Below are positions 3,001 to 64,000 of a DNA stretch of 64,000 nucleotides, piece after piece (position 1 is the stretch's first letter; the number at the start of each line of letters is the position of its first letter). Source of the stretch: Ophelia neglecta (Eukaryota). The position numbers are program-made. The DNA lies in assembly GCA_965285935.1 (NCBI GenBank), contig OZ260661.1, forward strand, positions 87,668,001-87,732,000. The letters run 5' to 3'.

Positions 3001-6000
3001 TTTAAGGAAATCACAGATGCATATAGTCCTAGATTAATTTCATTTTCCGATTATTAAATCTCCTGTGATAAGCGGCTTAAAGTTGTAAGTAGATTGACGC
3101 TCAGTTGGCAATAAATAAACAAGAAGCTGATTGTATAGGCTGGCCTTGTAGTACGTCAGGTGTGCGGAGTTCTTATCGTTTGTGGGTGGGCTTAGTCTTG
3201 CCAAACACTTAAGTGGTGTTAGCCAATGCACGAACGAAGCTCCACCAGGCGCAAATATAACCCTCATAAATAGTGACACTCCGGTGTCATCTTTAGTGGC
3301 GAGACGAGCAGTTATCATGCTATATCGAACGGCAATAATGATACCAGCGACAAGTTAAATGATTTAGCAGGCTCGCATTCCCAAAGCTCTCGTTGGCGAT
3401 TAAGATAGATTTCAGGCCGCAGATACAATGACACCAACGGTAAAGCAATCTACAAACTTAGCTGTAGCTCCGTCATTATAAACCGCCTTCCATTTCTCAG
3501 TTGTCAGGAAACTTTGCACTCCCGCCCAATAACCAAACTATCTCAAAATCATTTGGAGAGGTTACTAAATATCCTCTGATTTTCCCATGGGTGTATCAGA
3601 CTCAATAACAGAATCATTCAAGCTGATAAACAGTCGTGAAATAATTACGAGATAGGAGAGCGTGCACCTGTTTAGATACGGGGGACCGGAGGGCTGTTTA
3701 CTCTTACTTATCTATGCGTTTCGCTGTCACTTTAAACGACACCCAACAGAGGTTATATACTTGTTGGCAGCAATTATGCCCAGATATAGAGTTTTAATGC
3801 CCCGCTGCTGTTTGATTATGGGATATTAATAGCATAATCAAGTTCACCAGGACTTTGCCAATATAACAGAGCACAGTTTTGCATCTCACATATGGCACTC
3901 CCCTTTCCTAATAGCCAAACGAGGCGACCTTTTAATAGAGAGTAATCTGTCAGAACGAATTCACTTCTCTTGGGCGCATTGTCAAAAACTGGTTCGAATT
4001 ACACGGCTAAATTAGTTTCTGTTATAGCGCATATGGAAGGAATAAGGTGCGGTGGCACATTAACGGTAATAGAAAGCTCCATTTTGACAGGCATCTGGGT
4101 TAAATCATTAACAACCCGCGACCTGTGAACAAGTGGCGAAGAAAATGCCACCAAAGTGACGATTTAGAGCCAAAGGAACTGCTTTTCTAATGTTTTCCCA
4201 CATTGCAGATCTAAACAATTTGGTCTGATTCAAAAGAGTTTAGAACATAAATTGTAAAGTCATGAAAATTACCCTACTCGTTTGGCAATGTTGATGCCTT
4301 TGTTGAGCAATTTAGCGCACATGTGACAGAATGAACAAGAGCTGTTGTCAACATGTCATTGTGTCATTACAATAAAAATAAAGCCCGTAATATTTCTTGT
4401 TCATTACATAGCAGTGACTGTTCGGGCAAAGAAAACTTATGATAGGCCTATATAGGTTTACATATAGAGCAGGAATAACCAACTGACTAATATTGACATG
4501 TATAAAAAATCAGCATAAATGCAATTACCAAAATATTAATGTTTTGTAAACATTCAAATGAATATATATATAAAATTGTAGATTTTTAGCTACTCTATAA
4601 ATTATTCATTGTTTTTACCTGTGTTTCGGTGACGTTTAGGAGTGTTGCCATCTCAGCTCGCTCACTGGACGATAGATATTTTTTCTGCTCGAACTGTTTC
4701 TCTAACTCAAATATCTGACGTCCAGTAAATGTGGTCCTCGCTTTCTTCTTTTTCTTGTCTCCATCTTTGTCTGTGGATTCGTTCCCATCGCTTTTGTTTC
4801 CATCGTCACTTTTCTTTTCCAAACTCTCTTCTAACTTGCGTTTATCGCCTCTCTTTTCTTTGTCTGAAGAAATATAACATAAAATAAAATAGAGGTTTTA
4901 ATACAAATCTCTAATAATAACATGGTCTATTGCTATACACTAGTCGAGTGGACTTCTTTCAAGTTTATGCGAGCTGTCTATGTGCGTGTGATTGTAAAGC
5001 ATTCGGCTGTTGCACACTTTGAATACCGAGGATGTGCCAAATGCTATACTCAAATCTTGCCAAAAACAGTTTTCTCCATTCTTAATGATGATGATTGTTT
5101 TCCTTGGTTTGAAATCACTGTGATTTGACAATTTAATCTGCCCCCTATCGATCGTATACTTGGAGCTCAAGTTCATTTTTTCTCGTTCGAGCCATATACG
5201 TGTACTATGCTCACTCCAAGGAAAATTGAATATTCACATAAAATGGCGCGTTTGATGAACACTAGCACGGCGTGGTAAAACTATTATTGACTTATGTTGC
5301 AGTTATTTATCTGGTTCAGACGCATGTTTTGCCAAAGCTATATAGGAACCAAATACCCCAGGTTCATTTGTGATTAATAATTTATCTAGGCTACTACAGC
5401 ATTAAGCAAAATTTGGCTCGAGTTTTACTACAACGATTGCTCGTGTGGCTCAAAAATCAATTTCCTCTTGTTCGGTGAATTGCTGATACTGCCACTGAAT
5501 GAAACGCGGCCATTTGATACCTGCGCGACTGCGTGTCATTTCCCGGAGTTACTGGCGCGAATACTAAACACGGACGTTCAGGAAATATCTGCAATCATTA
5601 CGTGAGATTGGCACGAATGCGTCGTTAGAAACAACACGGTGCTTTACAGTCGCTCTTCTTGGGACTTAATAATGACTTAATACACCTCAGACGACCTGTT
5701 GTTGTCATTAGCCAGACGACGACGCTTGAATGGCGGGAAAAGATCCCTCTGGGATTTATTTAGCTCACATCAATATCCAGCTCCATCGTACTTCCGATAG
5801 TTTGCGAACAGAGAAAGAAATGAGTCTATTGTTACACATTGTGAGGCGACTGACGGAACGTTACAGATAAAAACATTGTACCAGGAAGAAAATATTGAAC
5901 GACAAATCATACGATCACGAGGAATTAAAAATAGCTAAAACACCCTTTGCATGAGGCCTTATTTCAAATGTAAAACTTGGACAACAACACGATGATATAA

Positions 6001-61900: not shown

Positions 61901-64000
61901 ATTCTATCAGCCTTTCTCTTCATATACCTATATATAGGTTTGTACGGTTCTTGCCATACACCACCAGCAGTTTGTGGTCATCAGCCTTATCCAGACCACC
62001 GCCGTATTCGAATTCATTTCTCGTACTTTTCACATTAGGGCTCGCCGGCCAAATTGCATCAATTGGTCGGGCTCTTTGAACGGTAATCAGCGGCCACGTC
62101 GTTACTCTGGCATACTGGGGGGCCCATGTAGCATGCTATAACTCTGACCTGAATAAAATGTTGATATAGGTGAATGCTTCAGTTTGGACAACACCAGGAC
62201 TTCATTTTAATCCTTATACTTTTCCTCTCGCTTTGAGCGAATTTAGAGTATTGCCTCTTTAGGTACATCTCTTAATTATTAGTTCTAACTCGTTTTCAGT
62301 GACCATAGGTCATTTACCTAAAATCTATTTGACAACATATGCGTCCTCGTTGAGTGGTGGTAGAGGGCGGGGGGGGGGGGGTGGTTGTCCGCATTACATC
62401 GGTCACATTGAGGTAAGGTAGCCGTGTACACCCCTGGGTCTGAGTTGCAGATAGCCCGTGTAGACCCCTGGGTCTGAGGTGAAGACAGCCCCTTCAGACC
62501 CCTGGGTCTGGGGTAAGGATAGTTCGTGTAGGCCCTTGGGTGCGAGGTGAGAATCACCCATGCAGACCCCTGAGGTGAAACATATTTGGGAATGGTTTCA
62601 TTTGCAGACAGTCTAACTGTTTAATTCTTTCTTCAGGTGTGGTTTCAAAACAGACGCACGAAATGGCGGAAGAAGCACGCAGCAGAAATGGCGACGGCGA
62701 AAAAGAAGCAGGAGGCTCGCGCTGACGAGATGGACGAGACCTCGGACAACGATACCGACGACACCGAGAACTACAAATCTGGGGATAACAACAACTTCAA
62801 GGAATACGACTTGGGTGGTAGTCAGAGTTTCGATGATGTCATGGACGCTACACATCAGACCCACACGCCACAATAGGACTGAGTCGGTGTGGTTTGAAAC
62901 TCGCCTTTATCGGGCACTCGAACGTTTGCTTGGTCTAAGTGACCGTAGAATTCAGTTCAGGAAGACTGTGAAAAGTATTCGTGCATACTTTTTCATCCGT
63001 TGGGCTGGTGGTTTATGTGTCAAGAGATGGAATTGTCATGCAGCTTTTACTAGATAGATCTTTGAAAGCGCACTGCGCATATTTGACTGATTGCACATGC
63101 GCTCTGAATGTGCTCGGAAGTGACATCACCGCATACCGGAAGAAGGTAGTTTTGAGCAGGGACTCGCGGGATTGAAAGGGACACACAGAGGAAACTACAG
63201 TATTAGCCTTCCGTTGTTACCCTGTAAGTCACTTTGTGGTATAAAGACTTGTTGGAGTATTAAAGGACCTTGTTCTCTCTATAATGGTATATAGTGATAT
63301 CGTGCTATTTATTTCCTAATCACAGACGCATGCATGCGTTATAAAATGGGGATAGGCCTATTGAATATACGCCTATGTAGAGGCACTATTAGTAATTCTT
63401 GTAATTTTCAGTATGAGTGATTGATTGGTGCTTATCTATAAACATAAAGGCACGTTTTCTTTGTCGGCTTAGATCGGATGATGTCAACCAATCAAATATA
63501 CCAGAATTATTTATAAATTTCATCGCGGAAATACCTTTGTCTCATCTGTAATAATCGCAATAAAAAATATCTTCATGGGAAATTTATATTAAGTATTATG
63601 CTATCTGTGGGCCCTTTACACGGTTTATTAATAGGTGGACATAGGCCTAACTCCTAGGCCTATGCCTAGAGTTGGTAGCCAGGTGGTCATAAACTATCAA
63701 GGAATTAAATTAAGCATACTATCCACCGAACTTAAAATTGTGGAGTGAAAATTTCATTCAGGCGATCTGGACATAAAAGCTGATTGCTTCTGGACCAAGT
63801 TATATTGAACTTCCTTCTTTACAAAAGCTAAAATTTTGATTTTTGACAGAACGTGATTGATCTAAAGCAGGCATGTCTATCTATGGTTCAGTCTGCATCC
63901 TCAGACGTGGACTTAATCGAAAGAAGTGTCTATGCCGTCTGAAATGAGTTTGTTCGGGCCACAATGCTTGTGTCAAAACGTATTGTCTTGTACCATAACA

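What the first reader, a model, noticed from the sequence alone, without database searches (positions are those of the whole stretch)
4619..62876. Head-to-head NK7-NK6 gene pair flanking a ~34-37 kb gene-free interval
Seen: NK7 (-) and Nkx6 (+) are divergently oriented, their ATGs are 37.4 kb apart (~33.5 kb if the duplication is an artefact), and no other gene is recognisable between them. Known: NK6-NK7 linkage has been described in some invertebrates as a relic of ancestral ANTP/NK clustering, and NK7 is absent from vertebrates and little studied. Inference: the pair may be held together by shared enhancers, forming a genomic regulatory block.
[Added by the scan's program, not by the reader: the finding's places include an assembly gap (unread letters, written N; its length is only estimated) at 33654 to 33753. 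Whether the letters on both sides are continuous or in frame is not known: test that first.]
Basis: partly seen in the sequence, partly recalled or inferred. Interest (0 to 1): 0.65.

Follow-up and report, generated by a model that had tools for sequence, protein, structure and literature searches.

The report
Neighbouring NK7 and Nkx6 homeobox genes
Two developmental homeobox genes, NK7 and Nkx6, sit back to back with about 33 to 37 kb of DNA between them that holds no recognisable gene, which is a further example of an ancient gene neighbourhood already described in other animals.

Summary
An NK7-type gene lies on the minus strand: exon 1 is 7969-7633 and exon 2 is 4863-4619. Its third exon lies off the window. 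A complete three-exon Nkx6 gene lies on the plus strand, 45363-62876. Their 5' ends face each other and the ATGs are 37,394 nt apart.

The N gap (33654-33753) sits at the junction of a redundant block of about 3.7 kb. The left copy ends exactly at the gap, and the unique parts of the two copies are 98.8% identical. This is most likely an unmerged contig or haplotype overlap, so the true spacing is about 33.5 kb. The overlap also supports the join across the gap.

I found nothing gene-like in the interval:
- No ORF of 50 aa or more reaches a Pfam cut-off.
- ORF lengths are at chance level.
- The longest ORF has no homologue among 1.84 billion proteins.
- There are no Rfam or tRNA matches.

Short-exon genes and non-coding transcripts are not excluded.

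NK7-NK6 adjacency is already in print for a sea anemone, an oyster, a butterfly, a beetle, a myriapod, an onychophoran and a spider. This is therefore one more instance, probably from a spiralian. The shared-enhancer (regulatory block) idea could not be tested here, and the published NK7 expression passages give it little support. Interest is low to moderate.

The parts
4619..4863 (-). NK7 exon 2: basic/acidic linker plus homeodomain residues 1-44. It ends at a CAG|GTAAAA donor, so the intron sits at homeodomain position 44/45.
   Evidence: Sequence read. Pfam Homeodomain E 4.5e-11. 43/44 identical to Capitella NK7 and 41/44 to Tribolium Nk7. tblastn of NK7 homologues gives 89-98% identity at 4613-4741.
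4864..7632 (-). NK7 intron 1 (2.8 kb, phase 1).
   Evidence: GT at 7632-7631 and AG at 4865-4864. The phase fits: G + AC = Asp. The junction is inferred from splice consensus and phase only.
7633..7969 (-). NK7 coding exon 1: starts MQHS... and carries the N-terminal motif RTWHPHIY...PTPHNINDILGL.
   Evidence: Sequence read. W22, H23, H25, Y27, P34, T35, I42, L43 and G44 are invariant in an alignment with 6 NK7 homologues, Tribolium Nk7 included. Of the 7 hits to this exon, 3 are proteins that also hit exon 2.
7970..45362 (.). Interval between the two start codons: 37,393 nt in the assembly, about 33.5 kb once the redundancy is removed. No recognisable gene.
   Evidence: 0 of the 83 stop-to-stop ORFs of 70 aa or more inside it reaches a Pfam cut-off. 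0 of 120 ORFs of 50-69 aa has a Pfam hit at E <= 0.001. The longest ORF is 123 aa, and 94% of 200 Markov simulations reach that length. That ORF has 0 homologues among 1.84 billion representatives. Rfam 0 hits at gathering score and at E <= 0.5. tRNA 0.
26096..28219 (.). 31-nt minisatellite, 68.5 copies, 87% matches.
   Evidence: Tandem Repeats Finder.
29963..33653 (.). Left copy of the redundant block: a 16-nt purine-rich minisatellite (29963-31257) followed by about 2.3 kb of unique sequence. It ends exactly at the gap.
33654..33753 (.). Assembly gap (100 N) at the junction between the two copies.
   Evidence: One search shows it is the only N run in the window. Not filled.
33754..37526 (.). 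Right copy of the redundant block. It starts inside the 16-nt minisatellite directly after the gap. Its unique part, 35291-37526, is 98.76% identical to 31400-33653.
45363..45870 (+). Nkx6 coding exon 1: starts MLECCGS... and carries the motifs SAFVLSNPPLAALHNMTEMK and TPHSIQDIL.
   Evidence: Sequence read. 70% identical to the unnamed protein P0121, 46% to Lingula Nkx-6.2 and 42% to Lamellibrachia Nkx-6.2. P0121 reads ...[18 protein letters not shown] across the predicted exon 1/2 junction.
51129..51304 (+). Nkx6 exon 2: homeodomain residues 1-46, donor AAG|GTAGGT, so the intron sits at position 46/47.
   Evidence: Sequence read. Pfam Homeodomain E 3.7e-11. Homeodomain residues 1-44 are 44/44 identical to P0121-P0123, 43/44 to Lamellibrachia and 42/44 to Lingula Nkx-6.2.
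62637..62876 (+). Nkx6 exon 3: [25 protein letters not shown]... through to the stop codon TAG.
   Evidence: Sequence read. tblastn gives 62-75% identity to three Nkx6 homologues over 62631-62849.

Best explanation
The window holds the NK7-NK6 neighbour pair of the ancestral animal NK homeobox cluster. The genome is an invertebrate one, probably spiralian; I do not take it for human.

The two genes are old tandem paralogues. They share a TPH-I-DIL motif near the N-terminus and a closely related homeodomain. They are transcribed away from each other. Between them lie about 33.5 kb of unique, non-coding, largely non-repetitive DNA. The assembly shows 37.4 kb because two overlapping contigs or haplotypes were placed end to end around a 100-N gap.

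Shown here: gene identities, exon structure, orientation, spacing, the redundancy at the gap, and the absence of recognisable coding or known-RNA genes between the two genes.

Inferred: the interval is the cis-regulatory landscape of one or both genes, as is usual for gene-poor flanks of developmental transcription factors. The adjacency is inherited from the cnidarian-bilaterian ancestor rather than newly formed. Whether it is kept by regulatory constraint or merely not yet broken remains open.
For: - Identity. Homeodomain residues 1-44 are 43/44 identical to Capitella NK7 and 41/44 to Tribolium Nk7. 110 of the 118 database homeodomains extracted fall on the NK7 side (37-44/44) and 8 on the NK6 side (40-44/44). 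Cross-family identity is 22-26/44. The tree split has 100/100 support.
- N-terminal NK7 motif is conserved.
- Nkx6 exons match named Nkx-6.2 proteins.
- Residues 19 (Q in NK7, T in Nkx6; both uncharged) and 30 (E in both) fit the NK6/NK7 pattern described in bioRxiv 10.1101/2023.03.14.532566 (passages).
- No third homeobox in the window.
- Interval empty of recognisable genes.
- Apart from the minisatellites and the redundant block, self-BLAST finds only 3 repeat pairs in the window.
- Redundancy at the gap.
- Ancestral adjacency, from passages: Nematostella '...NK3, NK7, NK6'; oyster '...NK7, NK6, Emx, Tlx'; Danaus about 59 kb apart; Epiperipatus, Trigoniulus, Tribolium and Argiope.
Against: - The NK7 call rests on two of at least three exons. 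Helix 3 and the C-terminus are off the window, so the gene could be truncated or a pseudogene downstream.
- The tree contains only NK6 and NK7 sequences. Other ANTP families were compared only through a PDB search, where the best matches (BarH-like 2, vnd/NK-2, Msx-1) score about 40 bits, against 78-139 bits for the listed hits.
- 'Gene-free' was tested only for ORFs of 50 aa or more, Pfam domains and Rfam families, plus a single homology search.
- There is a slight excess of ORFs of 70 aa or more: 75 against 61 +/- 7 simulated, reached in 4.5% of simulations. I cannot explain it; compositional patchiness may be the cause.
- The codon-usage score was trained on the very exons it then scored.
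- Linkage across the gap rests on the overlap of the flanks. I could not check how many copies of that 2.3-kb segment exist elsewhere in the genome.
Confidence: 0.78

Rival explanations
1. The pair is a genomic regulatory block: enhancers in the interval are shared by, or interleaved between, the two divergent promoters. A break between the genes would therefore be deleterious, and that is why the pair outlives the rest of the NK cluster.
For: - Adjacency is reported from cnidarians to arthropods and molluscs.
- The interval is long, unique and free of recognisable genes and of transposon protein domains. Regulatory landscapes look like this.
Against: - No conserved non-coding element, chromatin or co-expression data could be examined.
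- The NK7 expression described in the passages (ubiquitous, midline, head lobes, limb rings) was not reported there to resemble that of NK6.
- In spiders NK6 travels with Msx2, not with NK7.
- A search for NK6 + NK7 + 'head-to-head' found 0 papers, so a conserved orientation is not documented in text that I could search.
Confidence: 0.22
2. The interval is not gene-free. It holds a transcription unit that these tools cannot see: a long non-coding RNA, a lineage-specific or short-exon coding gene, or upstream non-coding exons of NK7 or Nkx6.
For: - Only ORFs of 50 aa or more were screened, and only one ORF was searched by homology.
- There is a slight excess of ORFs of 70 aa or more.
- No transcript data were available.
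Against: - No Pfam domain passes its cut-off.
- There is no excess of long ORFs: the maximum is 123 aa, reached by 94% of simulations.
- The best codon-usage score of any interval ORF is 0.10 bit per codon, against 0.22-0.66 for the five exons (the training was circular).
- No Rfam family matches even at E 0.5.
Confidence: 0.2
3. The 3.7-kb repeat around the gap is a real, recent tandem duplication, so the 37.4-kb spacing is true.
For: The two copies differ: 1.2% in the unique part, with different minisatellite lengths. A young duplication would also look like this.
Against: The left copy stops exactly at the left edge of the gap, and the right copy begins exactly at its right edge. That coincidence is expected for an unmerged overlap and unlikely for a real duplication. 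Allelic variation in minisatellite length is a common reason for failed merging (general knowledge).
Confidence: 0.15
4. The two genes are joined by a scaffolding error at the gap and are not truly neighbours.
For: The only physical link between them runs through the N gap at 33654-33753.
Against: The sequences either side of the gap overlap by about 3.7 kb at 95-98.8% identity, which is what two truly adjacent contigs would show. Adjacency of exactly these two families is also what other animals show.
Confidence: 0.04

Closest known systems
NK7-NK6 (NK7.1-HGTX) neighbour pair of the ancestral NK homeobox cluster
   Same: The same two gene families are immediate neighbours with nothing recognisable between them. 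The spacing of tens of kb is comparable with the roughly 59 kb reported for Danaus plexippus (PMC8767184 passage). NK7 is listed next to NK6 in Nematostella and in Magallana hongkongensis, and NK6 is said to follow NK7 in Epiperipatus, Trigoniulus, Tribolium and Argiope.
   Different: This is a different, unnamed and probably spiralian genome. No other NK-cluster gene (Tlx, Lbx and so on) lies within the 64 kb. The passages I read do not state the orientation for the other species, so I cannot say whether head-to-head is the usual state.
Genomic regulatory blocks around developmental transcription factors (concept recalled, not taken from a call)
   Same: A developmental transcription-factor locus flanked by a long stretch of unique non-coding DNA, with gene order conserved over long evolutionary distances.
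   Different: The defining arrays of conserved non-coding elements and the shared chromatin domain were not testable. There is no bystander gene. Here two potential target genes face each other.
Bidirectional (head-to-head) promoter gene pairs
   Same: Divergent orientation.
   Different: Such pairs share a promoter region of about 1 kb or less (recalled). Here the start codons are 33-37 kb apart, so a shared core promoter is excluded.
Other retained NK sub-clusters (Msx-NK4-NK3-Lbx-Tlx core; Lbx-Tlx; NK6-Msx2 in spiders)
   Same: They are also remnants of the same ancestral array. Shared or shuffled cis-regulatory elements have been proposed for them (PMC13088399 passages; PMC10726417).
   Different: Different member genes. 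For Lbx/Tlx and NK3/NK4 the cited paper discusses expression swapping. For NK6/NK7, no such evidence appears in the passages I read.

Membership tests
NK7 homeobox family (ANTP class, NK-like) | Homeodomain sequence groups with named NK7 proteins and not with other families. | tested here: met
   Residues 1-44 only. 43/44 identical to Capitella 'NK-like homeobox protein 7', 41/44 to Tribolium 'Nk homeobox 7', 25/44 to the window's Nkx6. The NK7 side of the tree has 100/100 support, but the tree holds only NK6 and NK7 rows. The best solved-structure families reach only about 40 bits.
NK7 homeobox family (ANTP class, NK-like) | Complete homeodomain, including recognition helix 3. | not testable with these tools
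   The exon is not in the window. It must lie beyond coordinate 1.
NK7 homeobox family (ANTP class, NK-like) | N-terminal WHxHxY ... PTPxxIxDILG motif shared by NK7 proteins. | tested here: met
   Invariant columns W22, H23, H25, Y27, P34, T35, I42, L43 and G44 in the alignment with 6 homologues. That this motif defines the family is my inference from those 6 proteins, not a published criterion that I saw.
NK7 homeobox family (ANTP class, NK-like) | Residue 19 uncharged and residue 30 negative, the NK6/NK7/Hmx-type pattern. | tested here: met
   Q19 and E30 read from the exon 2 translation. The criterion comes from bioRxiv 10.1101/2023.03.14.532566 (passages).
NK6 / Nkx6 homeobox family | Homeodomain groups with named Nkx6 proteins. 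| tested here: met
   Residues 1-44 are 42/44 identical to Lingula Nkx-6.2, 43/44 to Lamellibrachia Nkx-6.2 and 40/44 to two fish Nkx-6.2. The clade has 100/100 support. Exon 3 starts [24 protein letters not shown], as in those proteins.
NK6 / Nkx6 homeobox family | Conserved N-terminal region and TPHxIxDIL motif. | tested here: met
   Exon 1 matches Lingula, Lamellibrachia and fish Nkx-6.2 over 69-100% of its length. The motifs are visible in the sequences.
Ancestral NK cluster, NK7-NK6 sub-cluster | NK7 and NK6 are immediate neighbours with no intervening gene. | tested here: met
   limited to recognisable coding and Rfam genes. The join across the gap is supported by the overlap of the flanks.
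Ancestral NK cluster, NK7-NK6 sub-cluster | Further NK genes (Tlx, Lbx, NK1, NK5 and so on) linked nearby. | not testable with these tools
   There is no other homeobox in the 64 kb. The flanking genome is not available.
Genomic regulatory block | Array of conserved non-coding elements spanning the block. | not testable with these tools
   No eukaryotic genome collection was open. The one genome collection on offer holds bacteria and archaea only.
Genomic regulatory block | Synteny and orientation conserved across distant lineages. | tested here: inconclusive
   Adjacency is reported in several phyla but is not kept in most spiders. Orientation is not given in the text I could read, and supplements are closed.
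Genomic regulatory block | Shared chromatin domain and co-regulated expression. | not testable with these tools
   There are no expression or contact data. The published NK7 patterns were not described as NK6-like.
Bidirectional-promoter gene pair | Divergent start sites within about 1 kb (recalled criterion). | tested here: not met
   The start codons are 37,394 nt apart in the assembly and about 33.5 kb after correction.

The most novel reading that the evidence does not exclude
The head-to-head NK7-NK6 arrangement, with an uninterrupted interval of tens of kb, is itself the conserved unit. It would date back to the cnidarian-bilaterian ancestor and be kept because the enhancers of the two divergent genes are interleaved or shared. 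That would make this pair the most durable piece of the NK cluster and a compact two-gene model for why homeobox clusters persist.
Probability: 0.2. Interest if true: 0.55.

Novelty: new member of a known kind. Interest (0 to 1): 0.27.

Why it matters
As it stands, this is a clean, annotated example of a known ancestral gene neighbourhood. Its practical uses are these:
- It gives exon coordinates for two genes.
- It shows that the assembly carries a redundant 3.9 kb at the gap.
- It shows how badly NK7 orthologues are named in public databases.

Suppose a survey of orientation and conserved non-coding sequence showed that the divergent pair and its empty interval are conserved across phyla. 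The locus would then be a small, tractable case for testing whether shared enhancers, rather than inertia, hold homeobox neighbours together. It would also give a first handle on the function of NK7, a gene family that has no vertebrate member and whose ancestral function is called unclear in the passages I read.

Tried and rejected
- A third homeobox, or the missing NK7 helix-3 exon, inside the window. Relaxed six-frame motif scans and tblastn with 10 homologues found none.
- Transposon or other protein domains in the interval. None reaches a Pfam cut-off. The sub-threshold hits are Transglut_core2 16.5 bits, Sec61_beta 17.1 bits, and DUF3915/Atrophin-1 on the translated (CT)n repeat. I regard these as noise.
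- Known RNA genes. Rfam gave 0 matches at gathering score and at E <= 0.5. tRNA scan gave 0.
- Dispersed repeats shared between the two promoter sides. Self-BLAST gave only 3 small pairs outside the minisatellites and the redundant block.
- CpG observed/expected as a sign of a special chromatin state. It is about 0.8 throughout, and 0.16-0.20 only in the purine-rich minisatellite. Without a genome-wide baseline it says nothing.
- Naming the species. The closest proteins are 70% identical (Nkx6 exon 1, an unnamed record) and 66-67% (NK7 exon 1, a chiton and an abalone). I conclude only that the genome is probably spiralian. I did not try to trace unnamed records.
- A microsynteny survey in other animals. 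The phage, plasmid and E. coli collections are irrelevant and were not searched.
- A joined (spliced) coding sequence. It was deliberately not built, translated or searched. Every search was done exon by exon.

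
Full report
What is there

The window has one N run, at 33654-33753. Six-frame motif scans, direct reading of the sequence and Pfam show homeobox exons of two genes.

The minus-strand gene has two exons in the window.
- Coding exon 1 runs from the ATG at 7969 to 7633, with donor ACG|GTGAGT.
- Exon 2 runs from 4863 to 4619, with acceptor ...TTCTTCAG| and donor CAG|GTAAAA.
- The phase is consistent (G + AC), and exon 2 ends after homeodomain residue 44.

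The plus-strand gene has three exons.
- Exon 1 runs from the ATG at 45363 to 45870.
- Exon 2 is 51129-51304 and holds homeodomain residues 1-46.
- Exon 3 is 62637-62876. It starts [10 protein letters not shown] and ends with the stop codon TAG.
- The three add up to 924 nt.

The finding's end coordinates, 4619 and 62876, are exactly the last base of the minus-strand exon 2 and the last base of the plus-strand stop codon. The genes point away from each other, and their start codons are 37,394 nt apart.

I did not build, translate or search a joined coding sequence. I do not take this contig for human. One of the two genes belongs to a family that is absent from human (passage in bioRxiv 10.1101/2023.03.14.532566), and the best matches are invertebrate.

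Gene identities

The exon 2 translation of the minus-strand gene (81 aa) found 585 proteins at E <= 0.001 among the longer proteins. Two of them carry names given by researchers rather than by automatic pipelines: 'NK-like homeobox protein 7' of Capitella teleta and 'Nk homeobox 7' of Tribolium castaneum.

I compared homeodomain residues 1-44.
- The window's minus-strand sequence is 43/44 identical to the Capitella protein and 41/44 to the Tribolium protein. It is also 43/44 to two nemerteans, an abalone and Owenia.
- It is 25/44 identical to the window's own plus-strand gene.
- I could extract this segment from 118 of the 134 stored proteins. Of those, 110 fall on the NK7 side (37-44/44) and 8 on the NK6 side (40-44/44).
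- Cross-family identity is only 22-26/44.

A maximum-likelihood tree of the 57 distinct segments splits the two groups with 100/100 support, with one window gene in each. The limits of this tree are 44 columns and only two families. Other ANTP families were compared only through the solved-structure search. There the best matches (BarH-like 2, vnd/NK-2, Msx-1, GBX-1, Nkx-2.5) reach about 40 bits, against 78-139 bits for the listed hits.

Exon 1 of the minus-strand gene carries RTWHPHIY...PTPHNINDILGL. In an alignment with six NK7 homologues, Tribolium included, W22, H23, H25, Y27, P34, T35, I42, L43 and G44 are invariant. Of the 7 database hits to this exon, 3 are proteins that also hit exon 2.

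The plus-strand exon 1 matches Nkx-6.2 of Lingula (46%), Lamellibrachia (42%) and two fishes. Its best match is an unnamed 303-aa protein at 70% identity. That protein reads straight across my predicted exon 1/2 junction. Exons 2 and 3 match the same proteins.

Both window genes have an uncharged residue 19 and a glutamate at residue 30. This is the pattern described for NK6 and NK7 in the preprint passages. The two genes also share TPH-I-DIL near the N-terminus, 7/9 identical, as expected of old paralogues.

One correction to the finding

The NK7 gene is not complete in the window. No helix-3 exon exists on the minus strand between 1 and 4618. In tblastn, the helix-3 part of all seven NK7 homologues tried matches only the Nkx6 exon 3. 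Intron 2 of NK7 is therefore longer than 4.6 kb, and the last exon lies beyond the left edge of the window.

The gap

I tested this as the scan's program asked. The two flanks are not continuous with each other.
- 29963-33653 aligns to 33855-37526 at 95.06% over 3,725 columns.
- The lower-identity part is a 16-nt purine-rich minisatellite at 29963-31257 and 33758-35142.
- The unique part, 31400-33653 against 35291-37526, is 98.76% identical, with 10 mismatches and 18 gap columns.
- The left copy ends exactly at the gap, and its last 40 nt equal 37487-37526.
- The sequence directly right of the gap is already minisatellite.

This is the signature of two overlapping contigs, or two haplotypes, laid end to end instead of merged. 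The trouble was most likely caused by length variation in the minisatellite.

Removing the redundancy (37526 - 33653 = 3,873 nt) gives 33,521 nt between the start codons. The overlap has a useful side effect: it shows that the two contigs belong together, so the linkage of the two genes does not rest on the scaffold join alone. A real young tandem duplication cannot be excluded; I give it about 0.15. The gap lies in non-coding DNA, so no reading frame is at stake. I did not fill it.

Is the interval gene-free?

Within what these tools can see, yes.
- The window has 139 stop-to-stop ORFs of 70 aa or more, and 83 of them lie inside 7970-45362. None of the 83 reaches a Pfam cut-off. The only families above cut-off in the whole window are Homeodomain on the two exon-2 ORFs.
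- None of 120 further ORFs of 50-69 aa in the interval has a Pfam hit at E <= 0.001. For that scan the right-hand copy of the redundant block was left out.
- The longest interval ORF is 123 aa, and 94% of 200 locally composition-matched Markov simulations produce one at least as long.
- ORFs of 70 aa or more are slightly more numerous than simulated: 75 against 61 +/- 7, reached by 4.5% of simulations. Those of 90 aa and 100 aa or more are not in excess.
- The 123-aa ORF has no homologue at E <= 0.001 among 1.84 billion representative proteins.
- A codon-usage score gives 0.22-0.66 bit per codon for the five exons and at most 0.10 for any of the 47 interval ORFs of 80 aa or more. The score was trained on those same exons, so this is weak evidence.
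- Rfam finds nothing at gathering score or at E <= 0.5, and there are no tRNAs.
- Outside the two minisatellites and the redundant block, the window has almost no internal repeats: 3 small pairs.

What remains open: genes made only of exons shorter than 50 codons, lineage-specific small proteins, long non-coding RNAs, and upstream non-coding exons of the two genes.

What is already known

I read passages only (find mode) of the papers cited here, and no supplements.

NK7-NK6 adjacency is in print for several animals:
- Nematostella has an NK cluster listed as 'NK1, NK5, Msx, NK4, NK3, NK7, NK6' (PMC10719294).
- The Hong Kong oyster scaffold list ends '...NK7, NK6, Emx and Tlx' (PMC7566022).
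- In Danaus plexippus the two genes are about 59 kb apart (PMC8767184).
- PMC13088399 states that NK6 follows NK7 in Epiperipatus, Trigoniulus, Tribolium and Argiope. It also says that Wotton et al. 2009 and Chan et al. 2015 placed NK7 and NK6 side by side in the ancestral cluster. I did not see those two papers themselves.

The linkage is therefore part of the standard reconstruction, and this window adds one more, probably spiralian, instance.

A search for NK6 + NK7 + 'head-to-head' found 0 papers. The word 'orientation' does not occur in the main text of PMC13088399. The legend of Fig. 4 of PMC10726417 says that arrows show gene orientation, but figures are not held. I cannot say whether the divergent orientation is the common state.

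The regulatory-block idea

It is reasonable and conventional. PMC13088399 calls shared cis-regulatory elements the widely accepted explanation for conserved clustering. Nothing here tests it. No eukaryotic genome collection, expression data or chromatin data were available.

The passages I read give it little support for this particular pair.
- NK7 is described as ubiquitous in an onychophoran.
- It is ubiquitous with a stronger midline signal in a myriapod.
- It is restricted to head lobes, stomodaeum or limb rings in chelicerates.
- Its ancestral function is called unclear.
- In spiders NK6 is linked to Msx2, while NK7 stays with the core cluster.

I therefore put the shared-enhancer reading at about 0.2. 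I prefer the plainer account: an inherited neighbour pair whose intervening DNA is the regulatory flank of one or both genes.

Verdict

This is a new member of a known kind, of modest interest.

Noticed in passing
window 4617-4619 (-) and 51304-51306 (+): The two neighbouring paralogues have their homeodomain introns at different positions. NK7 is split after residue 44 (CAG|GTAAAA) and Nkx6 after residue 46 (AAG|GTAGGT). The unnamed database protein P0003 reads '...TETQVIEGLN', which looks like a gene model running into an intron at the same 44/45 position in another species.
   Followed up: partly
hits (database proteins, not the window): Orthologues of NK7 carry very inconsistent automatic names in public databases, although their homeodomains are 37-44/44 identical to the window's NK7. 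Examples are 'brain-specific homeobox', 'barH-like 1', 'Nkx-6.3-like', 'MOX-2-like', 'Hox-A3-like', 'Hmx-like', 'ceh-31-like' and even 'bromodomain-containing'. The likely cause is that the family has no vertebrate member to transfer a name from.
   Followed up: partly
window 26096-28219: A 2.1-kb minisatellite of a 31-nt unit, 68.5 copies at 87% matches, sits in the middle of the interval.
   Followed up: no
window 29963-31257 and 33758-35142: A purine-rich 16-nt minisatellite (consensus GGAGGCAATCCCTAGA) has strong GC and AT skew and a CpG observed/expected of about 0.16-0.20. It probably caused the failed merge at the gap.
   Followed up: partly
window 62422-62572: A 34/68-nt tandem repeat of about 4 copies ends some 65 nt upstream of the acceptor of Nkx6 exon 3.
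   Followed up: no
window 13929-13989: A perfect (CT)30 microsatellite. Its translation produced the only low-complexity Pfam near-hits in the interval.
   Followed up: no
window 31483-31544 and 46476-46544: A 69-nt inverted match at 83% identity links the redundant block and Nkx6 intron 1. It is the only dispersed repeat in the window that links the interval to a gene.
   Followed up: no
window 7970-45362: There is a slight excess of ORFs of 70 aa or more over composition-matched simulations: 75 against 61 +/- 7, reached by 4.5% of 200 simulations. There is no excess of longer ORFs. Unexplained; it may reflect compositional patchiness.
   Followed up: partly
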